A stretch of 64,000 bases of DNA. Origin: Candidatus Cloacimonadales bacterium. GTDB taxonomy: Bacteria > Cloacimonadota > Cloacimonadia > Cloacimonadales > JAIOQZ01. Shown piece after piece: positions 12,670 to 43,187 of the stretch; positions within the stretch are counted from its first letter, which is position 1, and each line of letters opens with the position of its first letter. The DNA is taken from positions 21,463 to 85,462 of the forward strand of contig CAXXPU010000005.1 of NCBI GenBank assembly GCA_963666875.2, in the 5' to 3' direction. Position numbers and translations under genes: made by a program. The notes beneath the pieces are model-generated. The model worked only from the letters and a program-made list of their open reading frames with translations, was not told the DNA's origin and searched no databases.

Positions 12670-13092
12670 ACAAGCAAGGTTTTCAAATAATCACGGGTGG
12701 ATCGATCTTATTCATCGAGAAGAAAACCTTCAGAAGAAGACCTTCAGGTGTGCAAACGTTTTAAACGACACGAAAAAAAGTTCGTTGCCAAGAACACGGC
12801 CTCCGCAGAGGCCCATTGAGAGCATATCATAGGATTTATACAAGACAGTGCAAGTAGTCGGGCAGAATTTGAATGCATCCCGGTACGAGTCTGCTAAAGC
12901 AATCTGTGCTCAGAATCTTCTTGTAGTCTTATCAGCTATCTGGTTGGAGATGATATTGATCGCAATTTTAGCAATCAAGATGGATGCGTTCACTTCAAGG
13001 AAGTCTTCAGCAACCCATCGGCTTATGCCATGTTCCATGACAAGATGATTGGCCCAGCGAAGATCGATATCACATACATTTCCTTGTTCGAG

Positions 13093-16000
13093 TTAATGGG
13101 TCATTAATTTTTTGTCTCTTCCAGGATGATACCGGTTGTTGACACTTTGTTGATCATTTCGGAGATTATTTGCTGCCACAACGAAATAGAAGCAACTGGA
13201 TTCTCTCAGCGGCTCTGTGTCGATGTAGCTTTCCGTTGCAGTTGTACCGATCTGCACAAATTCTCTGTCAGGAAACTCCGAGCGATAAATGATGTACGAT
13301 GTAGCATCCGGGACGATAGTCCAACTCAGCAGAATTGAACTATCTCCAACAGAGATTGTTACATTCGCTGGTGCTGTCAATTCACCGGGATCAACACCAA
13401 CTGTCCACTCGTATGCACCCATATCAATCGTTGTATTCTGAATGCGATCCTGTCCTCGGATGTCACAGGATTCGTTGTTGTAGTTGTTGTCTCCGGTATC
13501 CACGCATGAAGAAGAGCCATCGATTCTCAAGTCACCGGTTTCAGCGCTAACGAATAGAGGATCAACAGAAATGTTGTTAATCGTTGCATCAAGAATGTCT
13601 GAACCACCTGACAGTACCACATCATTCGTGCCGTTTGCGTAGCATGAATACTTCAAAGTAGTTGTGCCGCCGCCCATCAGGAACATCTGATTACCGGTCG
13701 TTGCAAGATTTCCCCAGACAATACAGTTTTGCAGAACCGGAGAGCAATTGTTGTAATTCAACATGCCGCCACCGTAATTTGTGGTTACATTCATTGCAAT
13801 TGTAGTGTTTGTCAGTACCGGAGAAGAGGAAGTCGAGTTCTCGATTCCAGCGCTGTTATTCGTGGTCTTGTTACCATAGATCAAGCAATTTGTGATAATG
13901 GGAGATGCATTGTAATTACAGACACCGCCCCCGTAATCACCTACATTCGCTGTAATAGAAACGTTTGTGATGGATGGCGAAGCCCCGGAATTGAAAACTC
14001 CAGAACCCCTGTCAAAAGGTTCTGTTCCATTTCCGTGCCCACCCTTCACCGTAAAACCATTCAAAACACTCGCGGTGGTCAAAGGATCCGGATTGTAGAT
14101 TACATGATAGCAGTTTTCCGAATTGTTGGAGAAAGTCAGCGTCTCTCCACTTCCGCTTACAATGTCGTCCCCGAATCGATCACCGCTTAAAATGGTTTCG
14201 TTTTCGTCTCCCATTCCGAAATTCGTTCTTTCATCCATGGAAGTTTCCGTACCGGCAAATCCGCCGTAGATTTCGACTCCTTCCATCATCCTGAAATGAT
14301 AATAGCGGGGGGTATTCGTCAGATTGTAAGAAGAACTTGGAATATATGTTCCCTTTGCCACCCAGATTTGATCTCCGGGTATGGCAATATCAAGCGCTGA
14401 TTGCAGGGAGGTAAAGGCATCCGCCCAGCTTGCTCCATTGTTCGCTCCCACGGCATTGATATCGGCATACAGAATTCCAGCGATACTGTATGGATCGACG
14501 TCATGTGTCCACTCGTAAGCGCCCATATCGATTGTGGTGTTTTGGATTCGGGCCTGACCACGCACATCGGTTGATGCTGTGTTATAGCTGTTCAGACCGC
14601 TATTGACTGCAGGTGAACAGCCCAGCAATCGAAAATCCTGCGTGAAGGCATCGATAAAAAGAGGGTCAATCGTGATGTTGTTATTGGTCGCGTCGAGGAT
14701 TCCATTCAGCGTTTCAACGTCATTGACGAGATTCTTGTAACAGGAATAGTTGATGGTTGTTGAACCGGTGCTGACCAACGATAGTTCATTCCCGGAACTC
14801 GTTGCCGTGTTATTCCAGATAACGCTATTTCTGATGGTCAACGTGGAAGCCACATTGTCCGAAGCAAACCTGATACCGCCTCCGGATAGTCCGGCATGAT
14901 TCTCTGAAATGGTTACGTTATTCAAAACGGCATCATACTGGACTGAACTGGAGTAGAATATTATGGCTCCACCATTATTGGTCGTCGTGTTAGAAGAAAA
15001 CAACGCGTTGGCGATCGTAAGCGAAGATGAGTGCGTAGATAAAGCGCCACCGTCAGTAACCGAGTTGTTACCGGTGAATATCGCGTTCCGAATTGACGCT
15101 GTTGTTTCTCTGAAATATATTGCACCTGCATTGTACGCATAATTCGATGCAAAACTCAAACCATCAAATTCTGGAGAACCGTTGTAAACATATACCCCTC
15201 CACCGCTATTTGAAGAGAGATTGTTGGAGAATGAGGCATTTTCCAGGAACGACATACTGTCATACATATATACAGCGCCGCCAATGCTTTCTGCTTTATT
15301 TGAATCGAAATTCACCTTCCTGATGACTGGCGAGGAGGAGAACAGGTAAAATGCACCTCCTCTGTTATGAGGATTGCTCCCTCTGTTTGCATTTCCACCC
15401 GTTATTGTAAATCCGTCAAGCAGGGCAGAATTTGTTAGATTCATTCCGTCTGGGTGATAGAATACATGATAGCAGTTATCATCTCCGCTGGCACCCTGAT
15501 AACCACCATTGGTTACATCAAAATCATCATTATCATTCAAATCACCGCTTAGGATTGTTTCATTTGCTTCTTCAAAACCATAATTGGTTCTCTGGTCGAC
15601 CCCAGTCTCGGTTCCGGCAAATCCACCATATATTTCAGTTCCTTCCACCATTCTGAAATGATAATAACGGGAACCACCACCCAGTCCATAGTCATATTCT
15701 GGTTTGTACGTTCCTTTTGCCACCCAGATCTGATTACCCGAAACCGCTTCATTCAAAGCTGATTGAAGCGAAGTGTAAGCGTCAACCCAGCATGAACCGT
15801 CATTGTTTCCACCGGCAAGAAGATCCACGAAGATGACCTGAAGGGGCGGATCAACACCGACTGTCCACTCGTATGCACCCATATCAATCGTTGTATTCTG
15901 AATGCGATCCTGTCCTCGGATGTCACAGGATTCGTTGTTGTAGTTGTTGTCTCCGGTATCCACGCATGAAGAAGAGCCATCGATTCTCAAGTCACCGGTT

Positions 16001-19000
16001 TCAGCGCTAACGAATAGAGGATCAACAGAAATGTTGTTAATCGTTGCATCAAGAATGTCTGAACCACCTGACAGTACCACATCATTCGTGCCGTTTGCGT
16101 AGCATGAATACTTCAAAGTAGTTGTGCCGCCGCCCATCAGGAACATCTGATTACCGGTCGTTGCAAGATTTCCCCAGACAATACAGTTTTGCAGAACCGG
16201 AGAGCAATTGTTGTAATTCAACATGCCGCCACCGTAATTTGTGGTTACATTCATTGCAATTGTAGTGTTTGTCAGTACCGGAGAAGAGGAAGTCGAGTTC
16301 TCGATTCCAGCGCTGTTATTCGTGGTCTTGTTACCATAGATCAAGCAATTTGTGATAATGGGAGATGCATTGTAATTACAGACACCGCCCCCGTAATCAC
16401 CTACATTCGCTGTAATAGAAACGTTTGTGATGGATGGCGAAGCCCCGGAATTGAAAACTCCAGAACCCCTGTCAAAAGGTTCTGTTCCATTTCCGTGCCC
16501 ACCCTTCACCGTAAAACCATTCAATACACTCGCGGTGGTCAAAGGATCCGGATTGTAGATTACATGATAGCAGTTTTCCGAATTGTTGGAGAAAGTCAGC
16601 GTCTCTCCACTTCCGCTTACAATGTCGTCCCCGAATCGATCACCACTTAAAATGGTTTCGTTTTCGTCTCCCATTCCGAAATTCGTTCTTTCATCCATGG
16701 AAGTTTCCGTACCGGCAAATCCGCCGTAGATTTCGACTCCTTCCATCATCCTGAAATGATAATAGCGGGGGGTATTCGTCAGATTGTAAGAAGAACTTGG
16801 AATATATGTTCCCTTTGCCACCCAGATTTGATCTCCGGGTATGGCAATATCAAGCGCTGATTGCAGGGAGGTAAAGGCATCCGCCCAGCTTGCTCCATTG
16901 TTCGCTCCCACGGCATTGATATCGACATACAGAATTCCAGCGATACTGTATGGATCGACACCAGGTGTCCACTCGTAAGCGCCCATATCGATTGTGGTGT
17001 TTTGGATTCTGGCTTGACCACGCACATCGGTTAATGTTGTGTTATAACTGTTCAGACCGCGATTGACTGCAGGTGAGTTTTCCAAAAGTCGGAAATCACC
17101 GATTATAGCATCCAAAAAGTCCGGATTTTCCGTCGTATTGTTATTATCCGCGACAAAGGTCGCACCGCTCATTATAACATCATTATCCTGACTGGGGTAG
17201 CAGGAATAATTAAGTATGGTCGTACCACCTCCGGATATATACATCTGATTCCCGGTGAGAGCATGATTTCCCCAAATGATGCAATTATTGAAGGTTGGGG
17301 TGGCGTTCAGATGGTTATTCAATCCACCGCCAGCATTCGTTGCCAGATTCATTACAATGGTTGTGTTGATAAAAACCGGTGAAGATGTCTCATTTTCAGA
17401 TCCTGCACCATTTTGAGCCAAATTACGATAGATGATGCAATTGGTGACGACCGGAGAAGCGTCCTGATTATAAATACCGCCTCCATAGATCCCCTGATTT
17501 TCAATCAAAATCACATTCGTTAATGAAGGAGATGCGTGGAAGTTGTAAATCCCGGAACCGCTATTGTGAGGATTTGTGCCATCGGCGTTTCCACCTCTTA
17601 CGGAGAATCCATTCAATAGGCTTGTTGATGTCAAAGGATCCGGATTGTAGATTACATGATAACAGTTATCCGTGTAGTTCGAAAAGGCGAGCGTTTCCCC
17701 GGTTCCGCTGACTACATCATCACCATTCAAATCACCACTGAGTATTGTTTCGTTTTCTTCTCCAACCCCGTAATGGGTTCTTTGATTGCTGGAAGTTTCC
17801 GTACCAGAGAATCCACCGTAGATCTCAACGCCTTCAATCATTCTGAAGTGATAATTGCGAGGTGTATTGAATAAATCATAAGAATCTTCTGGAACATAGG
17901 TTCCTTTTGCTACCCAGATATGATTTCCAGAAATGGCTGCATCGAGTCCCGATTGCAATGATATAAAGGCGTCGGTCCAGCTTGAACCATCGTTATTGCC
18001 GTCCGCCATAGCATTCACATAAATGACCTGAAAAGACGGATCGATTCCATCGGTCCACTCATAAGCTCCCATGTCAATCGTTGAGTTCTGAATCCGCGCT
18101 TGACCACGGAAGTCCAGCGCTTCTGAATTATAGGTGTTCTCACCGGTATCCACACATGGGGATATTCCATTGATTCTCAGATCGCCACCGGTGGTGGGAG
18201 CTTCCAGTGGGTCAACCGCCTCAATGAACAGGGGATTGCAATTGATATTGCCTGTTCCTGTATAAACACCACTGTCCATTTGAACATTACTATAACTAAT
18301 GGATATTCCTGATCCCAGAACCTGATCAGGATAATTACCCCATATAATGCAGTTTGTAGCGGATATTGAGTTCGCTCCCCAATCGGTTCCGAAAGCTCCA
18401 CCTGTGCCTGATGCACGATTACCATTGAAAGTAGTATTGGTTAGTGTGACTGTGGATCCCCAGCATGCTCTCACTCCGCCAATCGTCCCTCCAACAGATC
18501 GATTGCCTATAAATAGGCAATTTGTGAAGGTCCCTATAGAACTGTCTGTGAAGCTTACGCCTCCACCATTGTCCGTTGCTGTATTGCCTATGACGGAAAC
18601 ATTTACAGCATCAACCGTTACCCCATAGGCAGCTTCCAGTCCACCACCGGAATTTATTGTTTCACTGGAAATGACTGTGTTTTCGAGGAAGGCTACGCTC
18701 CTAAGTGTGAGTGTTCCACCCCCTACATGATACAAACCTCCTCCCGAAAAAGCCTGATTGTATCTGAAAGTGACATGGTTCAAAATTGCGTTCGACTGAT
18801 CTCTGAGATAAACGCCACCTCCTCCAACTCCAGTGCTGATGTTATTGCTGAAAACAACATCATCAAAAAAAGCATTTACATCTTCACCGGCATACCCTCC
18901 TCCAGCTGAAGCCAGATTGTTATTAAATTGGACATTGATTATGACAGGGCTCCCTCCATATAAATTATACATACCCCCACCATAACAAATCGGGAGATTG

Positions 19001-19653
19001 TTTGTCAATCGGTTGCCATCGATTAGAACGTTTTCGACATGTGGTGACGAGCTGGCATTCAGCATTCCACCGCCATACGTATGACCCTGGTTGCCCCTTA
19101 TCTCCAAGTTATAGTAACTGGGTGAACTATTCCAGTTCAATATCCCGCCACCACCGTAATAAGAGATACCAGAGCCGGCAGTAACGATAAAACCATCCAA
19201 TCTTGCGGTATTATCCACACCATCTGGAGCGACAACTACATGATCCGCATTCGTCCCAACCTGCTGATCCCAGCTTTCGGTAATCCAGTTACCGTCGTCG
19301 TTCACATCATCCTGCCCGAGATCGCCGCTTAAAATCGTTTTATTTTCCTGCCAGTCCCTTTCAGTCAGTAGCGTTTCCGTTCCAGCAAAGCCACCGTAGA
19401 CTTCCACGCCCGAGCTGAGCATAAAACTGCTTGTGGCGTAATAGACACCTTCCACAACCCAGATTTGATCTCCTGGAACCGCCGAATTCAATGCGGTATG
19501 CAAAGAAGTAAATGCGTCCGTCCAGGATTCCCCTGTCTCACTTCCAAACGCGCAGGCATCGACATGAATTATCTCCGCAGAAATACTCGTTCCACTGAAT
19601 AATATGGACAACGCCATGACACTCCACAATATAGAAAGCTTCTTGTTTTTCAT
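13093..19653 (-). CDS. Giant secreted protein (2,186 aa) of five Pmp-like parallel beta-helix modules (choice-of-anchor-Q-like) plus a C-terminal Fn3 domain; no T9SS sorting domain
   Basis: Signal peptide MKNKKLSILWSVMALSILFSGTSISA. Each module begins G.SW.DAFTSLQSAL..A..G.QIWVAKGTY, is rich in GGG/GGA and F..N turns, and ends D.RGQ.RIQN.TIDMGAYEW. The tail LTAPANVTISVGDSSILLSWTIVPDATSYIIYRS is Fn3-like. Confidence 0.85.
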   Translation of the reverse strand: MKNKKLSILWSVMALSILFSGTSISAEIIHVDACAFGSETGESWTDAFTSLHTALNSAVPGDQIWVVEGVYYATSSFMLSSGVEVYGGFAGTETLLTERDWQENKTILSGDLGQDDVNDDGNWITESWDQQVGTNADHVVVAPDGVDNTARLDGFIVTAGSGISYYGGGGILNWNSSPSYYNLEIRGNQGHTYGGGMLNASSSPHVENVLIDGNRLTNNLPICYGGGMYNLYGGSPVIINVQFNNNLASAGGGYAGEDVNAFFDDVVFSNNISTGVGGGGVYLRDQSNAILNHVTFRYNQAFSGGGLYHVGGGTLTLRSVAFLENTVISSETINSGGGLEAAYGVTVDAVNVSVIGNTATDNGGGVSFTDSSIGTFTNCLFIGNRSVGGTIGGVRACWGSTVTLTNTTFNGNRASGTGGAFGTDWGANSISATNCIIWGNYPDQVLGSGISISYSNVQMDSGVYTGTGNINCNPLFIEAVDPLEAPTTGGDLRINGISPCVDTGENTYNSEALDFRGQARIQNSTIDMGAYEWTDGIDPSFQVIYVNAMADGNNDGSSWTDAFISLQSGLDAAISGNHIWVAKGTYVPEDSYDLFNTPRNYHFRMIEGVEIYGGFSGTETSSNQRTHYGVGEENETILSGDLNGDDVVSGTGETLAFSNYTDNCYHVIYNPDPLTSTSLLNGFSVRGGNADGTNPHNSGSGIYNFHASPSLTNVILIENQGIYGGGIYNQDASPVVTNCIIYRNLAQNGAGSENETSSPVFINTTIVMNLATNAGGGLNNHLNATPTFNNCIIWGNHALTGNQMYISGGGTTILNYSCYPSQDNDVIMSGATFVADNNNTTENPDFLDAIIGDFRLLENSPAVNRGLNSYNTTLTDVRGQARIQNTTIDMGAYEWTPGVDPYSIAGILYVDINAVGANNGASWADAFTSLQSALDIAIPGDQIWVAKGTYIPSSSYNLTNTPRYYHFRMMEGVEIYGGFAGTETSMDERTNFGMGDENETILSGDRFGDDIVSGSGETLTFSNNSENCYHVIYNPDPLTTASVLNGFTVKGGHGNGTEPFDRGSGVFNSGASPSITNVSITANVGDYGGGVCNYNASPIITNCLIYGNKTTNNSAGIENSTSSSPVLTNTTIAMNVTTNYGGGMLNYNNCSPVLQNCIVWGNLATTGNQMFLMGGGTTTLKYSCYANGTNDVVLSGGSDILDATINNISVDPLFVSAETGDLRIDGSSSCVDTGDNNYNNESCDIRGQDRIQNTTIDMGAYEWTVGVDPPLQVIFVDLLAGGNNDGSCWVDAYTSLQSALNEAVSGNQIWVAKGTYKPEYDYGLGGGSRYYHFRMVEGTEIYGGFAGTETGVDQRTNYGFEEANETILSGDLNDNDDFDVTNGGYQGASGDDNCYHVFYHPDGMNLTNSALLDGFTITGGNANRGSNPHNRGGAFYLFSSSPVIRKVNFDSNKAESIGGAVYMYDSMSFLENASFSNNLSSNSGGGVYVYNGSPEFDGLSFASNYAYNAGAIYFRETTASIRNAIFTGNNSVTDGGALSTHSSSLTIANALFSSNTTTNNGGAIIFYSSSVQYDAVLNNVTISENHAGLSGGGIRFASDNVASTLTIRNSVIWNNTATSSGNELSLVSTGSTTINYSCYKNLVNDVETLNGILDATNNNITIDPLFIDAFTQDFRLLGCSPAVNSGLNSYNTASTDVRGQARIQNTTIDMGAYEWTHDVDPYSIAGILYADINAVGANNGASWADAFTSLQSALDIAIPGDQIWVAKGTYIPSSSYNLTNTPRYYHFRMMEGVEIYGGFAGTETSMDERTNFGMGDENETILSGDRFGDDIVSGSGETLTFSNNSENCYHVIYNPDPLTTASVLNGFTVKGGHGNGTEPFDRGSGVFNSGASPSITNVSITANVGDYGGGVCNYNASPIITNCLIYGNKTTNNSAGIENSTSSSPVLTNTTIAMNVTTNYGGGMLNYNNCSPVLQNCIVWGNLATTGNQMFLMGGGTTTLKYSCYANGTNDVVLSGGSDILDATINNISVDPLFVSAETGDLRIDGSSSCVDTGDNNYNNESCDIRGQDRIQNTTIDMGAYEWTVGVDPGELTAPANVTISVGDSSILLSWTIVPDATSYIIYRSEFPDREFVQIGTTATESYIDTEPLRESSCFYFVVAANNLRNDQQSVNNRYHPGRDKKLMTH
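13388..14560 (-). repeat. Copy B of a near-identical intragenic direct repeat, about 1.1-1.2 kb
   Basis: Line-by-line comparison with 15848-17020 (offset exactly 2,460 bp). I saw only about 3 mismatches between 13388 and about 14460, with divergence increasing to about 14620. Confidence 0.9.
15848..17020 (-). repeat. Copy A of the near-identical intragenic direct repeat
   Basis: Same as for 13388-14560. The encoded roughly 395-aa module (VDPYSIAGILY...MGAYEWTVGVDP) appears twice in the translation. Confidence 0.9.
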
Positions 19654-20265
19654 TATACGTCCCCCCTTTTTTTATGCATTTCTAATAACGCACCCAATAA
19701 TTGGGATACGATTTGATGGTTTGAGAACATTCGTTGGCTTGCCAGTTTCGTTTTTCCGATTCCAATTATATTAGGCTTCGATGTGAGTTTGACACCCACA
19801 TTCTGCAGTGAGTCTGGTTTACAATTCATTTATAGCGTGGGAAGTAATTGTTTTGTCCGATGTGGCGTAGAACATGTTTCTGTAAAAGTGTCAGGTACAA
19901 GACCGATAAAATATATAACGGATCACCCCTCATCTTCACAAGTTAGATTCCATGACGCGAAAGGCTTTCTCAAGCCATTTCTCCAGATCCAAGACTACGG
20001 TTCCCAACGCTTCGAAAAGCGCACAGGTCGAATATCCTCTGAGGAAGTTCAACAAGATCTCGCGTTTGCGGAACTACTCCACCCCACAGGTTTGCAGGGA
20101 GCGGCTTCCAAGGTGAGAGTCAACAGCAAAACAGATATTCCCATCCCATCCTCCAGGGACATCATCGATTATCTCAAAATCCATGTTCAAGATTTTCAGC
20201 AGCGTAACAATTGAAACACGACTTGAATTTATCTGAGATTCATGCCGCTGCTTTGTCAAGATCAT

Positions 20266-20720
20266 TTTCTCGATTCAATGTTTTTTACTTCCAGGGCGTT
20301 TGAAATCCCATTTTTCGATGCGCCAGTTGTCAAATAGCTCGAAGGATCCTTGGGCAACCGGCGACCTGTTTCATATTAATGAAGCCACGTCCGAAAACGA
20401 TTTGTTGCTTGAGTGTTTTATTGAATCGTTCTGCCACTCCGTTAGTCTGGGGGGAGCGCCACGAAGGCAAAGCCTGGTTTGATCTTGTGGTGTGTGCATT
20501 CCAACACCTCAATAAAGTCGCGCTGGCTGATGTACTTGATTTCGATGACGGTCTCCGAACTAACCTCATGCGCAGTGAATGGACGTCGGGTGTACTCCAC
20601 GAATCGTAGAATCACTCTCGCTTTGCCAAATCCATCATCGCTTCCTACGAGATCCTGGCCTGTTGAAGGTGCTTGGGACCAAACTCGACGACGTCAAGAT
20701 CGCGCGGATGGCCCCAAGCA
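20266..20720 (-). pseudogene. Decayed DDE (rve) integrase/transposase, with multiple frameshifts
   Basis: Minus-strand frames give SPQTNGVAERFNKTLKQQIVFGRGFINMKQ, then in another frame ELFDNWRIEKWDFKRPGSKKH*. Upstream, in a third frame, FIEVLECTHHKIKPGFAFVA. The family is not assigned. Confidence 0.6.
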
Positions 20721-33838: not shown

Positions 33839-34267
33839 TCAGGTTCGCTCCCAGTCCTCCACGTCACCATCGACGATTCGGAACAGCGGGTGCGGATCGA
33901 CGTCATGGATGTCTTTCAGTTCTGTATAATGCTCCGGATCGCGCGTCATCAGCTTCTTCAGCAGGTGGTCGAACTCGTATCCGATCTGACCTTTTGTGAC
34001 CTCGATCTGTTCGGTCTCCGCAAACTGCCCGATCTTCGTCCCGTCGAACCGGTATCCGCGCGATTTCGCCTCATCCAGCACACAACCAAGATAACGCCGA
34101 ATCGTATCGACCGGCTTCCCGTGCCGTCGAAACCTGTCCAATTGCGGATGATTTCGGTAGCCTTTCGTACCGCCCTCCAGCACCTTCTTTGCCAGAAGCC
34201 CCTCGCGCCACAACGCTACCAGTCCCTTGCTGTCCAGATACTTCGGATGAATCGACCATAGCCGCAT
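33839..34267 (-). CDS. Pyrimidine-dimer DNA glycosylase (T4 endonuclease V family)
   Basis: MRLWSIHPKYLDSKGLVALWREGLLAKKVLEGGTKGYRNHPQLDRF. The ATG at 34267 is preceded by GGAGG, and the ORF is open to 34321. Confidence 0.85.
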   Translation of the reverse strand: MRLWSIHPKYLDSKGLVALWREGLLAKKVLEGGTKGYRNHPQLDRFRRHGKPVDTIRRYLGCVLDEAKSRGYRFDGTKIGQFAETEQIEVTKGQIGYEFDHLLKKLMTRDPEHYTELKDIHDVDPHPLFRIVDGDVEDWERT

Positions 34268-34320
34268 GATGCCTCCAATATTGGCTCGCCTATAGGGATT
34301 CGATTTTGCATGCAAAATCA

Positions 34321-34391
34321 CAGAGGTCGAGCGCTACATAGAAATCAGCTTCCGAATGTGCCACGAAGTGGCTCTTCTGAATGTTGATTTC
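34321..34391 (-). repeat. Family B repeat: core plus one partial GTAGCGCTCGACCTC box
   Basis: The minus strand reads GAAATCAAC-ATTCAGAAGA-(GCCAC TTC GTGGC)-ACATTCGGAAG-CTGATTTC-TATGTAGCGCTCGACCTCTG. The central hairpin differs from the 4834-4883 copy but stays paired. Confidence 0.8.
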
Positions 34392-36639: not shown

Positions 36640-36756
36640 ACCCCCTGAGATGTTACCGAAATATAAGAATGGGGCAGAGGGCTGTCAAGGGGATAATGAT
36701 GTCATTAATCAGAAAATATACATGACCAAATTATCAAAGTGGCTATTTTTTGCAGA

Positions 36757-38700
36757 TTAGCATTTCAAATGGTATTTGAAAATTGAAAGTGTTCCTGGGC
36801 TAATGCAAAGGTATCCGAGATTGGGAGTTGTGTCTAAAAGTTTGTCTCTTATAAATATGCGGACTTCATCGGACATATGGAATGCCATTATTATGCCTAG
36901 TGTCATATTAGTATATCTGGAATTGACGAAAAATCCATTCATTCTACCTGACTGGGCTACATCCATTTCAACCTCATCAATTTTTCTGTTCAAATCGATG
37001 AGTTCCTTATAGTGCATATCTAATATCTGCAAACAAATATCTATGCTCACGGGTGAGGCAATATTCGAGAGTTGAACAATGATTTTACCAATGGATTTAT
37101 TGTAGATGATGTCCAATATGCCGTTGGGTACTTGCTTTCCTGGCAACCCCAGTCTTCGAGATAACATAGCAATATCTAGTGATATTGAGCAGGAATCATC
37201 TATACTTATGTGTTCAAACTCGTCTCGTTTATCCCAATTCAGGAAAAAGGACAAGATTGCTCGCTCATAATTCGCGTTTATGCGGTCCTTATTGATGATT
37301 CTCCAGTTTAGATACTTTATGAAGAGAACTGGGATAGTTATCAACTCGGTTAATTCATCAAGGGAAAATAGCTCCAATGGTATAGGATTATGCCCATTCA
37401 TGCTTACATTATTATCAATAAGCTGTTCGGTTAATAGGAGTAGTGAAGGAAAGGGGTCTGAGACTACACATAGGATATAGGTTTTCAAATTCTCTCTATT
37501 TACTTCAGCGTTTATGGTCTTGTTGATTCTTACTTTGGGATCTCTGATCGCATCAGCACACTTAGCTCCTTGAAAGAATGCTTGCTGAACAGCTCTTCCA
37601 AAGTCATTTGCTAAAGCATACCCATCTCCTTGCTTTGCTTCTTTGGTCAATGTTTTAGATTTTGCTTGCAAGATTATGCAGTTATCTCCATATATTACCA
37701 TGACGTCAGCTTCAGCTATCATTTTTTTCTTTGATCCGAAAATGATATTCCTATAAACACATTCTTCACCGAATACTCTTTGTAAAAAAGAATATGACAT
37801 AGTTTCTGTAAATAATCCACGATTCTTCTCGGCGGTGCTTTTGTAGGTTTCATCATTCCTCATCCAAAAAAATGGTGAGGTGTAGGCAGCGATGAATAGA
37901 GTCTGTAACAAGAAGCAGGCGTAAATACCGTTTCCCATCTCAATTATTGGATGAGAATCATGCATATTGTAGCCATGGAATGAATCAAAGGTTCGGCTGA
38001 TAGCATGCCTATCAAGGACAAAACATGATAATATACTTCTAAGCATATCATCGCTGTAGCCAAGTTCATTACTTAGTTCTTTTATGGAGAATTTCAGGCA
38101 ATTCAGCATTTCGAAACGGAGTTTATCATTGTGTGTATCTTGGCGCGCGAGTATGACTTTGTTTTCTTGTATATTCTTGATTGATTTGATTACATTGAGC
38201 ATTTCCTCAATATTAAAATTCATTTTTAAGTTTAACCATGCATTATCATTTTGGTATCTTTTATCTGTGAAATTCTCAAGCTGAAACGATGAAGCAGGAT
38301 CTGGTGCATAGAAAATTGGCTCTCTCAAGTCTTTAGGGGTGTAAATGCTGTCCGATGCGAACGATTGCATTTTATTTTTGAAATCATGTAAGAAATGCAT
38401 TTCATCTAAGAGGGAACGAGTGAGTTGTTCTTGCTCTTGAAAAACAGTAATCGTTGGACGAGTCAAAGATAAGTCGCTCTTGCTAAGTAAACCAACTAGT
38501 ACTGATAGCTCTGTAGGGATTAATCGATTATACATATACATTGGACGTAGGTCATATGGAGTGAGATCGTCGCCGTATGCAAAATAAGTATTCTCTACGC
38601 AGAGTGCTGCTAAAGTATAGGCATATCCAGCTCTCGTGCAGAGTTCTGCAAGTTCGGCAAACACAATTTCTTCGGTACGCATACTTGCCATCCTTTCCAT
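36757..38700 (-). CDS. Orphan 647-aa protein with a central PD-(D/E)xK / Mrr-NERD-like nuclease motif; strongly AT-rich gene
   Basis: A single uninterrupted ORF. Motif RGLFTETMSYSFLQRVFGEECVYRNIIFGSKKKMIAEADVMVIYGDNCIILQAKSKTL (aa 294-351, nt about 37650-37820) fits the pattern G..FE...L...hhh-(E/D)-x-D-h-h-h-x(8-12)-h-h-h-(E/Q)-x-K. I recognise no other domain. Confidence 0.75.
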   Translation of the reverse strand: MERMASMRTEEIVFAELAELCTRAGYAYTLAALCVENTYFAYGDDLTPYDLRPMYMYNRLIPTELSVLVGLLSKSDLSLTRPTITVFQEQEQLTRSLLDEMHFLHDFKNKMQSFASDSIYTPKDLREPIFYAPDPASSFQLENFTDKRYQNDNAWLNLKMNFNIEEMLNVIKSIKNIQENKVILARQDTHNDKLRFEMLNCLKFSIKELSNELGYSDDMLRSILSCFVLDRHAISRTFDSFHGYNMHDSHPIIEMGNGIYACFLLQTLFIAAYTSPFFWMRNDETYKSTAEKNRGLFTETMSYSFLQRVFGEECVYRNIIFGSKKKMIAEADVMVIYGDNCIILQAKSKTLTKEAKQGDGYALANDFGRAVQQAFFQGAKCADAIRDPKVRINKTINAEVNRENLKTYILCVVSDPFPSLLLLTEQLIDNNVSMNGHNPIPLELFSLDELTELITIPVLFIKYLNWRIINKDRINANYERAILSFFLNWDKRDEFEHISIDDSCSISLDIAMLSRRLGLPGKQVPNGILDIIYNKSIGKIIVQLSNIASPVSIDICLQILDMHYKELIDLNRKIDEVEMDVAQSGRMNGFFVNSRYTNMTLGIIMAFHMSDEVRIFIRDKLLDTTPNLGYLCISPGTLSIFKYHLKC

Positions 38701-38728
38701 TTTCCAATCTCAATATATTATGAAAGTG

Positions 38729-39355
38729 TTATCCGTTATCTATCACCAGGTTCGCTCTATACCTCGGGTGTGCTTCGCGGAAGTAGATTTTCTGGCCCGG
38801 GGTGTAACGTTCATGATATCGCTGTTCGAGTTCGTCGGGGGATGCGAAGAGGTGGTTGTCGCGTTTACGAGCGCGCTGGATCACGGTTTCCCACGAGACA
38901 TCCAGAAAGACGGAGTAGTCCCAGTAGGCGATGATTTCCGGTCTGTGCAGGAATACGCCGTCGAAGATGAGAATGGCGTCGTCGGGCGCGGTCTGCCAGG
39001 GTTGGTCTATCTTCTGGTCGGTACGGTAGTCGAACACGGCGGTCTTGAACGGTCTGTTCGCGGGGTGCCTTAGCGGATCGAGCAGGACGTGCTTCAGGGC
39101 ATTGTAGTCGAAAGAGTCGTTGTAATACGATTCAGGCGTGGAACCCTTGTGGTAGCGGATTTCCCTTGGATTGTGGAAGCCGTCGATACTTGATTGGATG
39201 ATGTGGTAATTACGATCCTCGAGCCACAGGGTCAGGTTTCGGGCGAACGTCGTCTTTCCCGCGCAATCGACGCCATCGACTGCGATCAGGAAGGGACGAT
39301 CGAGTGTCCTGCGCGAGAGTTTCTGTTCGATGATCTTGAAGTAGGTTTCCATCAT
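38729..39355 (-). CDS. P-loop nucleoside/nucleotide kinase (uridine kinase / PRK family-like)
   Basis: Walker A in FLIAVDGVDCAGKTTFARNL. The family-level call rests on size (208 aa) and on the ILIFDGVFLHRPE block. Confidence 0.65.
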   Translation of the reverse strand: MMETYFKIIEQKLSRRTLDRPFLIAVDGVDCAGKTTFARNLTLWLEDRNYHIIQSSIDGFHNPREIRYHKGSTPESYYNDSFDYNALKHVLLDPLRHPANRPFKTAVFDYRTDQKIDQPWQTAPDDAILIFDGVFLHRPEIIAYWDYSVFLDVSWETVIQRARKRDNHLFASPDELEQRYHERYTPGQKIYFREAHPRYRANLVIDNG

Positions 39356-40521: not shown

Positions 40522-42792
40522 CTATTTTATCATCATCATTTTGCGGACGAAAGTCTTGTCGGTGGTCCGTAGTTTGTACAGGTAGATACCGGTGGGCATG
40601 GCCTTGCCGGTGTCGCTGTCGCCGTGCCAGACGAGCGAGTGGCTGCCTTCCTCCATGCGACCGTTGACGAGAGTTTTCACCTTCTGTCCCTTGATGTTGA
40701 ACACGTATAGCTCGACGTTCGACGCCTCAGCCAGACTGAAGTCGATGCGCGTTTCCGGATTGAACGGATTCGGGTAGTTGCCTGCGAGCTCGGTCACGAA
40801 TTGCGGCGTGTCCTGGGGATCGCTGGCCTGCGGAGCGTCGATCAGGATATCGACATCACCGATCGTCTCACCGGCGGTCACTTCCACGCCCGTAACGGTC
40901 ACGGGATCCGAATCGGTGTAGTATGCGGTCAGGTCGTAGGTTCCGGCGGGAAGTTCCATCGAATAGATGCCCGAGTCGTTCGTGTGCGCAATGAAATTAC
41001 CGGCGCGAACCACCACGTCTTCGATCGAGCGGCTGTCGTCGAGGGTTATCTGTCCGGTGATGGTGCCGAAGTCGATGGATGTGATCAGTGCGTCGATGCA
41101 GAAGTTGAAGTTCTGGTTCGATGCGAGTTCCGTCCAATTGGTGGAGCCGATGAATGCGCCGCCGCTGACGCGCGGACCGGCGTCGTGCCAGGCGAGGTCG
41201 CCACTTTGAGAATGGATCGCGTAGCCGACGTAATAATCGTTATCCGGATCAATCAGCGCGTAGGGGAGGAATTCGACCTCCAGCCATTCGCCCGATTCGA
41301 AGCTGTCGATCTGCTTCTCCGCGATCATCTGGTTGTTCATCCAGACCTGCGCGGAGATTTCTGCCTCGTTGCTGGAGACTGGCGCTTTGAACCGCATGCC
41401 GCGGATCGCCTGATCTTCGAACGCGGTCAGTTCGGCTTGATCGATTTTGATACCGCAACGGAGCGAGTATTCGATGCCGATCGAGAAGATATCTGCTGGC
41501 GCCTGGCTGTGTCCCGCGCCAATCTTGCCTTCGTAGAATGTGAGATCGATATCCGTGTCCTGGTCGTCTGCCGTGACGGTGAAAGCGGTGCTGCCGAAAT
41601 AGCCGTTTCCCGTGCTGGCGCTGAGTGTGTAATCGCCGGGCAGGATTTCCGGGAAGCTGAAAAAGCCGTTCGCGTCGGCATATACGGTTTCAAGAAGGTT
41701 GCCATCTTCGTAGAGGCAGACACCAGCGCCTTCTGTGGAAACCTCTGCGTTGAGGTTGCCGGTCAGGGCTTCGTAATTGGCGAGGTTGAAATCGATGCTG
41801 GTGGTGTTCTCGTCGATCGTGACCTCGAATTGCTCGTAATAGACGCGGTTTCCGAGAATCGCAGTGGCGAGGTAGGTTCCGGGGAACATGGCAGGGATCT
41901 CGTAAGAGCCGTTAGCGCTTTCCACGTAGGCTTCAAAATCGTACTCGCCCTCGAATCGGATGTATGCGCCGACAGGCGAGCCGCCGTCAACGTTTACGGT
42001 TCCGGAGATCTCGACGGGATGCTCTCCACCCTCAATGTTATAGACCATTCCGGAGATGATGGAGTATCCGCTGGGCATTCCTTCGGGAAGGATATACCAG
42101 CAGGAGCTGTCGGACGATCCCCACCCGAAATTCAAGTGGAAATAGTCGTCGGTGTTGTAACCGTCGCAATTAATGGCATGTCCGGAGTCGTAGTCGGGTG
42201 TATTAATGGATAACTCGACCGGGCGTGCGTATTTCATTTCCTCTTCCAATACGTTGAGGAGCTGGTAGCTATAATCCATGTGCGATGCGGAATCAAAGCC
42301 GAATTTATCGGGCAGTGCGTATGTTACGTACTCGGTCATAGCGCCGCTTCCATCCGAAGCATAGGACATCTGTACGCTGATACCGGCGGCGAAATTCAGC
42401 GCTGCCAGGTCCTGCGAAGTCCAGTCAATCCCCTCTTCGATATGCTCGCCGAGTGTATCGAGGTAGCCGTTGAGTTCTGTGAAGGATGGAAGTCGTTCTC
42501 TTCGTGGTCTCCATCGATGTGTATGCCGTCCCACCATCCTGATACGTACGCGTCCGACTGGTCGAAGGAGGCATCGCCGATCCACTGGTGATAATATATC
42601 AGCATGGACATGGCGGTCGCCACGCAACCTACCACCGAACGCTCTCCGCTGGAATCCAGCGGACACATATCGTTGTAAACACCGGACTGGTTCCAGCGGG
42701 TAAGGAGCCATCCGTCGGTGATTGTGGAACCGTCGGCAGGCCACTGCTGGAAGTCGTCGTCGGGACGATTGGGATTGAATAGCGCATCCCAT
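40522..42792 (-). CDS. Peptidase C10 (streptopain-like), C-terminal reading frame: second half of the catalytic domain, CarboxypepD_reg-like beta domains and a T9SS sorting domain
   Basis: Real coding probably starts near 42495. SFTELNGYLDTL...ISVQMSYASDGSGA...DSGHAINCDGYNTDDYFHLNFGWG carries the catalytic His. Repeated GTY/GDYTL beta-sandwich modules follow. C-terminus NYPNPFNPETRIDFSL...IYLYKLRTTDKTFVRKMMMIK. Confidence 0.8.
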   Translation of the reverse strand: MGCAIQSQSSRRRLPAVACRRFHNHRRMAPYPLEPVRCLQRYVSAGFQRRAFGGRLRGDRHVHADILSPVDRRCLLRPVGRVRIRMVGRHTHRWRPRRERLPSFTELNGYLDTLGEHIEEGIDWTSQDLAALNFAAGISVQMSYASDGSGAMTEYVTYALPDKFGFDSASHMDYSYQLLNVLEEEMKYARPVELSINTPDYDSGHAINCDGYNTDDYFHLNFGWGSSDSSCWYILPEGMPSGYSIISGMVYNIEGGEHPVEISGTVNVDGGSPVGAYIRFEGEYDFEAYVESANGSYEIPAMFPGTYLATAILGNRVYYEQFEVTIDENTTSIDFNLANYEALTGNLNAEVSTEGAGVCLYEDGNLLETVYADANGFFSFPEILPGDYTLSASTGNGYFGSTAFTVTADDQDTDIDLTFYEGKIGAGHSQAPADIFSIGIEYSLRCGIKIDQAELTAFEDQAIRGMRFKAPVSSNEAEISAQVWMNNQMIAEKQIDSFESGEWLEVEFLPYALIDPDNDYYVGYAIHSQSGDLAWHDAGPRVSGGAFIGSTNWTELASNQNFNFCIDALITSIDFGTITGQITLDDSRSIEDVVVRAGNFIAHTNDSGIYSMELPAGTYDLTAYYTDSDPVTVTGVEVTAGETIGDVDILIDAPQASDPQDTPQFVTELAGNYPNPFNPETRIDFSLAEASNVELYVFNIKGQKVKTLVNGRMEEGSHSLVWHGDSDTGKAMPTGIYLYKLRTTDKTFVRKMMMIK

Positions 42793-43187
42793 TCCGGATC
42801 CGTGGATTGATTGCCTTCGACATCAAACCATGCCTTGCGATTGGCGATATCGGTATTGATCATGCTGATCAAAGGATTTTCGCTGTCGTTGATGAACGAA
42901 TGTTTGAATGAATACGCCAGAATCGGCTGTATCCGATCGTCCGCCGGGACGACGATAAATCCTGGATTGTTCAGTTGATAGACGTATGCAGTCTGTTGTT
43001 CCCTCTGAGACAGCGTGATGACCTGCTCAACATTGGCATTATGGTTTCTGAATTCCAGAAATCGCTCAGCCGCTTCCAATCCGCGACTTTCACTTACTGG
43101 AATTGCCAGCAGAATCATGCTGAGTCCCAACAGCACTATTGTAATCGTGATTCTCATTATCCTCTCTCCTCTGTGTAGCTGTAACAT
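42396..43187 (-). CDS. Peptidase C10, N-terminal reading frame: signal peptide, Spi-type prodomain and catalytic Cys
   Basis: MRITITIVLLGLSMILLA (likely start at 43157). Prodomain AAERFLEF...YVYQLNNPGFIVVPADD. WNQSGVYNDMCP...VVGCVATAMSMLIYYHQW carries the catalytic Cys. The frame diverges from the downstream one near 42470-42500. Confidence 0.8.
   Translation of the reverse strand: MLQLHRGERIMRITITIVLLGLSMILLAIPVSESRGLEAAERFLEFRNHNANVEQVITLSQREQQTAYVYQLNNPGFIVVPADDRIQPILAYSFKHSFINDSENPLISMINTDIANRKAWFDVEGNQSTDPEWDALFNPNRPDDDFQQWPADGSTITDGWLLTRWNQSGVYNDMCPLDSSGERSVVGCVATAMSMLIYYHQWIGDASFDQSDAYVSGWWDGIHIDGDHEENDFHPSQNSTATSIHSASISKRGLTGLRRTWQR

What the first reader, a model, noticed from the sequence alone, without database searches (positions are those of the whole stretch)
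36757..38700. AT-rich orphan gene encoding a 647-aa protein with a PD-(D/E)xK / Mrr-NERD-like core: candidate novel single-gene defence or nuclease system
Seen in the sequence: three sampled 60-nt lines inside the gene count 37%, 35% and 27% G+C. The flanking NfeD-like gene samples at 57% and the kinase-like gene at 53%. The compositional change is sharp at both gene borders (36700-36757 and 38700-38729). TTA/CTA/TCA avoidance, typical of the core genes, is absent here.

The only motif I recognise is ...RGLFTETMSYSFLQRVFGEECVYRNIIFGSKKKMIAEADVMVIYGDNCIILQAKSKTL (E330/D332 ... Q345-x-K347, nt about 37660-37713). This is the classic restriction-endonuclease-fold signature, as in Mrr_cat and NERD domains. 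It is embedded between about 290 aa of N-terminal and about 290 aa of C-terminal sequence of unknown function.

Inference: this is a horizontally acquired stand-alone nuclease effector with sensor-like flanking domains, as seen in many recently discovered anti-phage genes. It is inserted between housekeeping operons with no mobility gene nearby.
Basis: partly seen in the sequence, partly recalled or inferred. Interest (0 to 1): 0.7.

Follow-up and report, generated by a model that had tools for sequence, protein, structure and literature searches.

The report
Imported stand-alone NERD-type nuclease gene
This AT-rich gene is a foreign import encoding a very divergent member of a widespread, untested family of stand-alone DNA-cutting enzymes that also sits in a known anti-virus hotspot of E. 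coli, so it is a plausible but unproven phage-defence gene and not an orphan.

Summary
A 647-aa ORF (36757-38700, minus strand) has 37.5% G+C and GC3 0.38. Its neighbours have about 49-58% G+C and GC3 0.62-0.76. It is the lowest-GC stretch of the window, with sharp borders.

"Orphan" is wrong. The protein belongs to a family of about 1,100 clusters (50% identity), found in at least 447 species genomes and on 30 plasmids. Members are typically about 720 aa and are annotated NERD plus a C-terminal SEC-C zinc knuckle.

The window copy is a lone deep branch. Its nearest relative is 35% identical. It lacks the last ~90 aa, including SEC-C.

The nuclease reading is supported. E299, D332 and K347 are invariant in 259/259 family sequences, and Q345 is Q in 254 and E in 5. 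They fall on the canonical helix and strands of a confident model (pLDDT 87).

The best structural match is the defence protein Upx (E 1.6e-5), followed by Can2 nuclease cores. The protein is not a Upx member.

The family has no conserved partner gene and is usually GC-poorer than its flanks. In E. coli it is the sole cargo of the P4-satellite psu-int defence hotspot. Rousset et al. 2022 listed it there as system #45, "likely a nuclease", apparently untested.

Verdict: a horizontally acquired, probably defensive stand-alone nuclease. It is a new, divergent member of a known kind. Its function is inferred, not shown.

The parts
36757..38700 (-). CDS of 647 aa, stop codon included. The alternative and probably true start is at 38682, giving 641 aa. 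It is a divergent, SEC-C-less member of the NERD + SEC-C nuclease family.
   Evidence: ORF. The identical 641-aa database protein is P0001. Homologues at 29-35% identity cover 88-99% of the query.
36690..38728 (.). Low-GC island of about 2 kb, essentially this one gene. The borders are approximate.
   Evidence: Composition profile. GC3 and codon usage. The kinase stop codon is at 38729 and a host-like promoter-like site lies at 36660-36688.
37831..38700 (-). N-terminal helical domain, residues 1-290.
   Evidence: AF2 models (pLDDT 87-88). On its own it again finds Upx as the top hit: TMq 0.41, E 0.33, with all other hits at TMq 0.19 or less.
37915..38127 (-). Winged-helix-like sub-domain, residues about 192-262 (helices followed by a beta hairpin). 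Tentative.
   Evidence: DSSP order H192-201, E203-205, H206-213, H217-225, H241-249, E252-256, E259-262. Only weak Foldseek hits to wHTH proteins such as TFE-alpha, MarR-like, SarA, ArsR and IclR.
37366..37842 (-). PD-(D/E)xK (restriction-endonuclease-like, NERD / Card1-Can2-type) core, residues about 287-445, with alpha-beta-beta-beta-alpha-beta(-beta) topology.
   Evidence: DSSP elements H287-310, E315-322, E327-337, E340-347, H360-386, E406-413, E439-443. Pfam NERD hits in 61/66 family members. Weak CARF_PDDEXK and Card1_endonuc matches to this stretch. Foldseek hits to Can2, BspD6I and McrC.
37654..37806 (-). Catalytic residues: E299 (37804-37806), E330 (37711-37713), D332 (37705-37707), Q345 (37666-37668), K347 (37660-37662), K349 (37654-37656).
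   Evidence: Among 259 family sequences: E299 259/259, D332 259/259, K347 259/259, Q345 254 Q and 5 E, position 330 always E or D, K349 252/259.
36760..37365 (-). C-terminal alpha/beta domain of unknown function, residues 446-647, with invariant R515 R516 G521 P525 G527. It ends about 90 aa before the family's C-terminus and has no SEC-C motif.
   Evidence: Alignments A1 and A2. R515 is 259/259. SEC-C is present in 207/259 family members and absent here. Only 117 nt separate the stop codon from nfeD, so no SEC-C remnant can be encoded downstream.

Best explanation
The gene is a recently imported accessory gene from a low-G+C donor. It encodes a stand-alone, metal-dependent PD-(D/E)xK nuclease of the NERD / Card1-Can2 type.

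Shown by computation:
- It is a full-length but very divergent member of a large family.
- The family has an invariant E...D...(Q/E)xK active site.
- The core lies between a helical, winged-helix-like N-terminal domain and a conserved C-terminal domain.
- The family travels alone on plasmids, on ICE-like elements and in the P4-satellite defence hotspot.

Inferred:
- The protein is an anti-phage (or anti-mobile-element) effector.
- It is kept inactive by its flanking domains until a phage-derived cue is bound.
- It then degrades nucleic acid and stops the infection, in the manner of single-protein sensor-nucleases such as Upx.
- The family's usual C-terminal SEC-C zinc knuckle, probably a partner-binding or localisation module, has been lost in this copy. 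Its regulation therefore probably differs from that of typical members.
For: Horizontal origin:
- GC 0.375 against 0.50 for the window, GC3 0.38 against 0.62-0.76, and foreign codon usage.
- The two nearest host relatives (flotillin 79% and 72% identical) keep nfeD-flotillin but lack this gene there.
- No protein above 35% identity exists among 1.84 billion cluster representatives.

Family membership: E 1e-98 to 1e-65 over nearly the full length.

Nuclease core:
- Invariant E299, D332 and K347; Q345 with 5 E exceptions.
- These residues sit on helix 287-310 and strands 327-337 and 340-347 of a model with pLDDT 87 and pTM 0.90.
- NERD is hit by 61/66 members.
- Foldseek: Upx E 1.6e-5 with probability 1.0; Can2 E 1e-2 with probability 0.98.

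Accessory, mobile behaviour of the family:
- At least 447 species across many phyla.
- 30 plasmids, 22 of them conjugative, and no phage record.
- The gene is a median 6.9 GC points below its flanks in 71 loci.
- No conserved partner: the largest neighbour cluster covers 5/80 loci.
- Only 2 of 5,426 complete E. coli genomes carry it.

Defence context:
- In both E. coli genomes it is the only gene between psu and int of a P4-like satellite at ssrA.
- That locus is an established anti-phage hotspot (PMC9122126). It is almost never empty, and 6 of 8 randomly chosen unknown cargoes from it protected against phage (PMC13586616).
- Rousset et al. list this very protein as hotspot system #45, 'DUF1887/NERD', 33 loci, 'Likely a nuclease'.
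- The E. coli protein is 33% identical to the window protein, E 4e-85.
- Other contexts: next to type I R-M, an integrase, KAP-like NTPase, SoFic, RhuM, or at an ICE border.
Against: - No member of the family has been tested, as far as the searchable literature shows.
- Away from P4, most chromosomal neighbourhoods are ordinary metabolic genes. Only roughly 5-6 of 37 loci have a recognised defence gene within two genes, and I had no background control.
- The window copy itself matches no Pfam, PADLOC, NCBIfam or PHROG model.
- It keeps only 101 of 152 highly conserved family columns, against 136-151 of 152-157 columns (87-99%) for four control members, and it lacks the C-terminal ~90 aa. It may work differently or be decaying.
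- Q replaces the usual acidic residue in (D/E)xK. From memory, HinP1I (QxK) and MspI (NxK) are active enzymes with this kind of substitution. This was not verified here.
- The window holds no neighbouring defence or mobility genes.
Confidence: 0.6

Rival explanations
1. It is a type IV-like, modification-dependent restriction nuclease. A solitary nuclease with no methyltransferase would be constitutively competent. Its N-terminal winged-helix-like domain would read modified foreign DNA and the PD-(D/E)xK core would cut it, as in Mrr-type enzymes. This is still defence, but without a protein-sensing, abortive mechanism.
For: It is a solitary gene with no partner or methyltransferase. It has a winged-helix-like element ahead of the nuclease core. 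Its distribution is patchy and horizontally transferred, and it sits in the P4 hotspot, which also carries Mrr_cat systems.
Against: There is no Mrr_cat, Mrr_N, SRA or other known reader-domain match. The best structural match for both the whole protein and the N-terminal domain is Upx, a protein-triggered nuclease. The large conserved C-terminal domain and SEC-C tail have no counterpart in type IV enzymes.
Confidence: 0.15
2. It is a weapon or maintenance factor of mobile elements, serving plasmid, ICE or satellite competition, exclusion or addiction and not protection of the cell from lytic phage.
For: It occurs on 30 plasmids, 22 of them conjugative. It sits at the border of a TrwC/TrwB conjugative element. 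ParB-like genes, resolvases, integrases and transposases recur nearby. P4 hotspot cargo is itself interpreted as taking part in inter-viral competition.
Against: In the window and in most chromosomal loci it sits alone, with no element around it. No antitoxin-like or immunity partner is conserved.
Confidence: 0.1
3. In this genome the gene is a decaying or functionally shifted relic. It would have been imported and be drifting, with loss of the SEC-C tail and of a third of the conserved positions, and would no longer act as the family normally does.
For: It keeps 101/152 conserved columns, against 87-99% in controls. It lacks about 90 C-terminal residues. It is 31% identical to the family, whose members average 49% identity to each other. 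No close relative exists anywhere.
Against: The 647-codon frame is intact in AT-rich DNA. Every catalytic and many structural invariants are retained. The model is confident. About 20% of family members also lack SEC-C. A foreign composition that has not drifted towards the host's argues for a recent arrival, not long decay.
Confidence: 0.12
4. It is a housekeeping DNA repair or recombination nuclease of the host.
For: PD-(D/E)xK nucleases include many repair enzymes. A pyrimidine-dimer glycosylase gene lies 2.4 kb away.
Against: Its composition is foreign. It is absent from relatives at this locus. The family is patchy, being present in 2 of 5,426 E. coli genomes, and has no conserved context.
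Confidence: 0.03

Closest known systems
NERD + SEC-C proteins ('SEC-C metal-binding domain-containing protein' / 'NERD domain-containing protein' in NCBI; P4 hotspot system #45 'DUF1887/NERD' of Rousset et al. 2022)
   Same: It is homologous over almost the whole length (E down to 1e-98). It has the same three-part layout, the same invariant E299/D332/Q345/K347/K349/Q377/R515/R516, and the same stand-alone, horizontally moving behaviour.
   Different: It is only 29-35% identical, where members are 37-91% identical to each other. A third of the conserved columns are changed. It lacks the last ~90 aa and the CxCxSGx(n)CC zinc knuckle. It scores below threshold for NERD. The family itself is experimentally uncharacterised.
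Upx (Gao_Upx), a single-protein PD-(D/E)xK anti-phage system (PDB 9wuf; PMC13099982, PMC13601566)
   Same: It is the best structural match for the whole protein (E 1.6e-5, probability 1.0, TMq 0.39) and for the N-terminal domain alone (TMq 0.41). Like Upx, it is one polypeptide with large non-catalytic domains and a restriction-endonuclease-like core, with no NTPase and no partner gene.
   Different: Upx is about 1,270 aa, with an NTD and MD of about 700 aa and its canonical core (D1161, E1176, K1178) at the extreme C-terminus. Here the core is central, uses QxK, and is followed by a 200-aa domain. No sequence-level similarity was detected: 12% identity in the structural alignment and no PADLOC hit. 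Which Upx residues were aligned could not be read out.
Can2 / Card1 nuclease domain (Card1_endonuc, formerly DUF1887; CARF_PDDEXK models)
   Same: The core is of the same type. Foldseek hits 8q3y, 8q41 and 8bao have probability 0.95-0.98. Weak PADLOC CARF_PDDEXK and Pfam Card1_endonuc hits map onto the D...QxK strands. A QxxxY-like helix motif follows (Q372xxxF375 here; Y in 228/259 members).
   Different: There is no CARF domain and no association with CRISPR or cyclic-oligoadenylate signalling. The similarity is limited to about 150 residues.
Rugutis and PDC-S12 (defence or candidate-defence proteins carrying a SEC-C motif)
   Same: The family's C-terminal knuckle matches the PDC-S12 model and the same PDB SEC-C entries as Rugutis (2I9W).
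   Different: The match covers only about 30 residues, and the rest of the proteins are unrelated. The window protein has no SEC-C at all.

Membership tests
PD-(D/E)xK (restriction-endonuclease-like) superfamily | An alpha-beta-beta-beta-alpha-beta core with the catalytic D on strand 2 and (D/E)xK on strand 3 | tested here: met
   In the AF2 model (pLDDT 87) the order is H287-310, E315-322, E327-337 (D332), E340-347 (Q345, K347), H360-386, E406-413. Q stands in the (D/E) position; 5 of 259 relatives have E there.
PD-(D/E)xK (restriction-endonuclease-like) superfamily | Structural similarity to solved members | tested here: met
   Foldseek PDB hits: Upx E 1.6e-5; Can2 E 0.013 with probability 0.98; R.BspD6I small subunit probability 0.99 with TMt 0.44; McrC. 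All but Upx are individually weak.
PD-(D/E)xK (restriction-endonuclease-like) superfamily | Divalent-metal-dependent phosphodiester cleavage | not testable with these tools
   This needs biochemistry with E299A, D332A and K347A controls.
NERD (Pfam PF08378) | Match to the Pfam model above the gathering score | tested here: not met
   The window protein gives no NERD hit even at E up to 10. However, 61 of 66 aligned homologues hit NERD at E of 0.01 or better (best 8.3e-9). Membership therefore holds only by transitive homology.
NERD + SEC-C family (P4 hotspot system #45) | Full-length homology and the conserved catalytic and structural residues | tested here: met
   E 1e-98 to 1e-65 over residues about 5-600. 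33% identity and E 4e-85 to the E. coli P4 protein. All 39 invariant columns of A2 include the window protein. Only 101/152 near-invariant columns are kept.
NERD + SEC-C family (P4 hotspot system #45) | C-terminal SEC-C zinc knuckle (PF02810, CxCxSGx(n)CC) | tested here: not met
   The motif is absent from the window protein. It is present in 207/259 relatives and 57/66 by Pfam. The window protein ends where relatives read 'GLCLxPG'.
Upx (Gao_Upx) | A protein of about 1,200-1,300 aa with an N-terminal sensor (NTD + MD) and a PD-(D/E)xK core (D...ExK) at the extreme C-terminus | tested here: not met
   This protein is 647 aa, has a central core, uses QxK, and has 200 aa after the core. The Upx layout comes from PMC13099982.
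Upx (Gao_Upx) | Sequence homology to Upx | tested here: not met
   No PADLOC model matched the window protein or 66 relatives apart from the SEC-C-only and CARF_PDDEXK models. That PADLOC contains a Upx model is from memory. A profile search of PDB sequences found only SEC-C peptides, not 9wuf.
Upx (Gao_Upx) | Activation by the phage large terminase, and anti-phage activity | not testable with these tools
   This needs co-expression toxicity and plaque assays.
Can2 / Card1 (CARF-nuclease) | N-terminal CARF sensor domain | tested here: not met
   No CARF hit was found. The N-terminal model finds no CARF structure. Only the nuclease part of the CARF_PDDEXK models aligns.
Mrr-type (type IV) restriction enzymes | Mrr_cat catalytic domain and an Mrr_N reader domain | tested here: not met
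   No Mrr_cat or Mrr_N hit in the window protein or in 66 relatives.
Anti-phage defence gene (operational definition) | Enrichment next to known defence systems or in defence hotspots | tested here: inconclusive
   Strong in E. coli: it is the sole cargo of the P4 psu-int hotspot in 2/2 genomes and in 33 loci in Rousset's Table S1B. Weak elsewhere: about 5-6 of 37 loci have R-M or SoFic within two genes, with no background control. Nothing defence-like surrounds it in the window.
Anti-phage defence gene (operational definition) | Protection against phage on expression | not testable with these tools
   No report of a test of this family was found.

The most novel reading that the evidence does not exclude
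The NERD + SEC-C proteins are an unrecognised, widespread single-protein anti-phage system distantly related in fold to the nuclease half of Upx. Their flanking domains would sense a phage protein. This might be the large terminase, possibly in nascent or unfolded form at the ribosome, with the SecA-like zinc knuckle acting as the tether. The sensing would unleash a QxK-type PD-(D/E)xK nuclease. The window gene would represent a deep, SEC-C-less branch that does the same without the tether.
Probability: 0.2. Interest if true: 0.7.

Novelty: new member of a known kind. Interest (0 to 1): 0.42.

Why it matters
If the family is confirmed as a defence system, it would add a very widespread single-gene nuclease system to the catalogue. 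It spans at least 447 species across more than ten phyla, plus conjugative plasmids and P4 satellites. It has an unusual QxK active site and a SecA-type zinc knuckle.

The structural link to Upx would connect two sensor-nuclease families that share no detectable sequence similarity.

The window copy shows how far such a gene can diverge and still keep its catalytic set. It also shows such genes landing as naked single-gene insertions in a Cloacimonadota-like genome.

As it stands, this is a good candidate for testing, not a surprise.

Tried and rejected
- **Direct scans of the window protein.** Pfam, NCBIfam, PADLOC, PHROGs and PDB sequences gave nothing significant.
- **PADLOC hits of relatives.** The hits to PDC-S12, E1-E2 and E2 looked promising but cover only the last ~30 residues, the SEC-C knuckle. 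I rejected them as evidence of membership.
- **'mad2/mad3' (MADS) hits among neighbours.** The neighbour I could check individually (L008:6093-8582) is a type I methyltransferase cross-match. The rest overlap the type I R-M hits.
- **Profile of 66 relatives against PDB sequences.** It found only SEC-C peptides and SecA tails.
- **BFVD viral structures.** Nothing significant.
- **Phage genomes.** No homologue.
- **Empty-site test.** The identical protein is not indexed for contig look-up. The nearest host relatives (79% and 72% flotillin identity) have a different gene order upstream of nfeD. They show non-conservation but not a clean empty site.
- **Flanking repeats.** Only short chance-level matches, and no target-site duplication.
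- **Promoter and terminator scan.** The number of promoter-like sites is no higher than in shuffled sequence.
- **Upx sequence for a profile-profile comparison.** Not obtainable; the supplements are not held.
- **Literature searches for NERD with SEC-C.** No paper found.
- **Systems newly named from P4 hotspots in 2026.** Crouga, Bandua, Aernus, Toga, Reve and Hailong do not match this family.
Full report
**1. The observation**

A second in-frame ATG at codon 7 (38682) has a better-placed AGGA. It matches the database copy P0001 (641 aa) and the N-termini of most homologues, so 641 aa is probably the true product.

G+C in 300-nt windows is 0.34-0.42 inside the gene and 0.52-0.61 just outside on both sides. 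The gene is 0.375 overall, against a window mean of 0.504. No other gene-sized stretch of the 64 kb falls below 0.433.

GC3 is 0.377, against 0.62-0.76 in seven neighbouring genes. TTA, CTA and TCA are used 4-30 times more often than in the neighbours.

The quoted motif is present, and E330-K347 maps to nt 37660-37713 as stated.

**2. Not an orphan**

The window protein alone matches no Pfam, NCBIfam, PADLOC, PHROG or PDB-sequence entry.

A search of 5.8 billion proteins nonetheless returned 184 or more homologues at 29-34% identity, covering 88-99% of the query. Most are 710-745 aa, and sources name them 'SEC-C metal-binding domain-containing', 'NERD domain-containing' or 'nuclease-related domain-containing'.

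An exhaustive HMMER pass over 1.84 billion cluster representatives found 1,102 clusters at E of 0.001 or better, and 376 at 1e-30 or better. Nothing apart from the identical protein is closer than 35%.

Family members are on average 49% identical to each other (minimum 37%). The window protein averages 31% to them. It keeps 101 of 152 columns that are at least 90% conserved, against 87-99% for control members.

It also stops about 90 residues before the family's C-terminus and has no SEC-C knuckle. The knuckle is present in 207/259 relatives. Only 117 nt separate its stop codon from nfeD, so nothing further can be encoded downstream.

It is therefore a lone, deep, SEC-C-less branch of a large family.

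**3. What the protein looks like**

With a 66-sequence alignment, AlphaFold2 gave a confident model (pLDDT 87.4, pTM 0.90). The layout is:
- Residues 1-290: helical, with a helix-helix-helix-hairpin element at about 192-262 that looks like a winged helix. This reading is tentative, with only weak wHTH hits.
- Residues about 287-445: helix 287-310, strands 315-322, 327-337 and 340-347, helix 360-386, then strands 406-413 and 439-443. This is the restriction-endonuclease-like order.
- Residues 446-647: an alpha/beta domain of unknown function.

The catalytic positions across 259 family sequences:

| Residue | Location | Conservation |
|---|---|---|
| E299 | first helix | 259/259 |
| D332 | strand 2 | 259/259 |
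| Q345 | strand 3 | 254 Q, 5 E |
| K347 | strand 3 | 259/259 |
| Position 330 | strand 2 | always E or D |

The invariant first acidic residue is E299, not E330.

Q in the (D/E)xK position is unusual. From memory, it is tolerated in active enzymes such as HinP1I (QxK) and MspI (NxK).

Of the aligned relatives, 61/66 hit Pfam NERD, 57/66 hit SEC-C, and a few hit Card1_endonuc.

**4. Structural neighbours**

Foldseek against the PDB put the 2026 cryo-EM structure of the defence protein Upx (9wuf) first: E 1.6e-5, probability 1.0, TMq 0.39 over 754 columns. Can2, BspD6I and McrC nuclease cores followed at E of about 0.01-0.3.

To see whether the Upx match goes beyond the core, I modelled residues 1-290 alone (pLDDT 88). 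Upx was again the top hit with TMq 0.41, and every other hit was at 0.19 or below. With E 0.33 this is not significant on its own.

Upx is 1,272 aa. It has a sensor NTD and MD, and its canonical core (D1161, E1176, K1178) lies at the very C-terminus. It is a Mg-dependent 3'-5' ssDNA exonuclease and is triggered by phage terminase (PMC13099982, PMC13601566). The window protein is half that size, has a central core followed by another domain, and shows no sequence-level link.

It resembles Upx in kind and partly in fold, but it is not a Upx member.

**5. Known defence catalogues**

PADLOC models PDC-S12, E1-E2 and E2 are hit by 55-57 of 66 relatives. These hits cover only the last ~30 residues, the SEC-C knuckle. 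The core gives only weak CARF_PDDEXK matches. The family is not a PADLOC v2 system.

SEC-C motifs do occur in validated defence proteins such as Rugutis, whose escape mutants map to the terminase ATPase.

**6. How the family behaves in genomes**

- A scan of one genome per species found relatives in 447 species. These span Proteobacteria, Acidobacteriota, Cyanobacteria, Bacteroidota, Planctomycetota, Chloroflexota, Nitrospirota, Desulfobacterota and Firmicutes.
- The family is on 30 plasmids, 22 of them conjugative, and in no phage record.
- In 71 loci the gene is a median 6.9 G+C points below its flanks. Repeated import is the rule for this family, not a peculiarity of this window.
- No neighbour is conserved: the largest neighbour cluster occurs in 5 of 80 loci.
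- Neighbourhoods are heterogeneous. Some have type I R-M, SoFic, RhuM, a KAP-like NTPase, integrases, resolvases or an ICE border. Many are plain metabolic genes.

On its own, this is suggestive but inconclusive.

**7. The decisive context**

Using the Salmonella plasmid copy as a DNA probe, I found the gene at full length in only 2 of 5,426 complete E. coli genomes.

In both, it is the single gene between psu and int of a P4-like satellite integrated at ssrA. The element carries the alpha primase-helicase, Icd-like gene, delta/ogr, psu, then the gene, then int.

That interval is the established P4 anti-phage hotspot (Rousset et al. 2022, PMC9122126). A 2026 survey reports that the hotspot is almost never empty, and that 6 of 8 randomly chosen unknown-function cargoes protected against phage (PMC13586616).

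Rousset's Table S1B lists exactly this protein as system #45, 'DUF1887/NERD', 33 loci, 'Likely a nuclease'. It appears only in that table among the files held, so it was apparently catalogued but not cloned.

The E. coli protein is 33% identical to the window protein (E 4e-85), with the same active-site motifs.

**8. The window locus**

The host looks like a Cloacimonadota-type MAG.

The gene lies on the same strand between a uridine-kinase-like gene, whose stop codon is 28 nt upstream, and nfeD-flotillin. All of these have host composition.

There is no tRNA in the window, and I found no integrase, transposase or defence gene among the large ORFs from 22 to 52 kb. No flanking repeats are present.

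The two nearest relatives keep nfeD-flotillin but have other genes upstream. The gene is therefore not syntenic in the lineage, although these relatives are too distant for a clean empty-site test.

**9. Interpretation**

Shown:
- The gene is foreign.
- It is a member, though an outlier, of the NERD + SEC-C family.
- It has a complete and correctly placed PD-(D/E)xK-type active site.
- It stands alone, and the family occupies a defence hotspot.

Inferred:
- It is a metal-dependent nuclease held in check by its flanking domains and released by an infection cue, like Upx.
- The missing SEC-C tail implies altered regulation.

I put 0.6 on 'defence-type stand-alone nuclease'. The main rivals are:
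- type IV-like restriction (0.15);
- mobile-element conflict (0.10);
- a decaying relic in this genome (0.12).

**10. Verdict**

The gene is neither an orphan nor a new kind of system. It is a new, very divergent member of a catalogued but untested candidate-defence nuclease family.

Interest is moderate (0.42). The family deserves an experiment, and the Upx-like fold and SEC-C tail give concrete hypotheses. Nothing here would astonish a specialist.

Noticed in passing
window 40522-43187 (-): A T9SS-secreted Peptidase C10 (streptopain-like) gene appears split into two overlapping ORFs. ORF 42396-43187 carries Inhibitor_I69 and the first 40 positions of the C10 profile. ORF 40522-42792 carries C10 positions 84-189, CarboxypepD_reg domains and Por_Secre_tail. 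This is probably a frameshift, from either a pseudogene or an assembly error.
   Followed up: no
window 36660-36688 (-): A near-consensus sigma-70-like site (TTGACA-17-TATATT, 11/12) lies in the 117-nt gap between the imported gene and nfeD. The nfeD-flotillin operon would then keep its own promoter and need not depend on read-through from the insert. The scan as a whole found no more sites than in shuffled sequence.
   Followed up: no
L013:12167-13441, L014:12167-13360, L020:12167-13360, L035:12167-13393, L041:5817-7010: In 5 of 80 family loci the gene immediately downstream is a protein of about 400-425 aa with its own NERD-like 'D...E-x-E/K' stretch (LVVCGPHIIIISVKEIEF). Four of the five copies (L013, L014, L035, L041) were scanned and have no PADLOC match; L020 was not scanned. 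It may be a second uncharacterised nuclease that sometimes travels with the family.
   Followed up: partly
L005-L084 (80 family loci): The family gene is GC-poorer than its 10-kb flanks in most host genomes, whatever their G+C. The median difference is -6.9 points, and 46 of 71 loci are more than 5 points lower.
   Followed up: yes
L096 (Salmonella enterica IncFIB plasmid CP053577.1, 23883-25666): The family homologue on this plasmid carries no annotated CDS, and the tblastn match comes in two pieces. It may be a pseudogene there. It lies near VapBC, a DUF4365 gene, a NUDIX gene and an integrase.
   Followed up: no
window 13000-20500: A broad stretch of mildly lowered G+C (0.45-0.47, against about 0.52 elsewhere) with negative GC skew was not examined.
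   Followed up: no
window 33839-34321 (-): A pyrimidine-dimer DNA glycosylase (Pyr_excise, E 3e-23) lies between the hybrid histidine kinase and the flotillin operon. Its composition is host-like.
   Followed up: no
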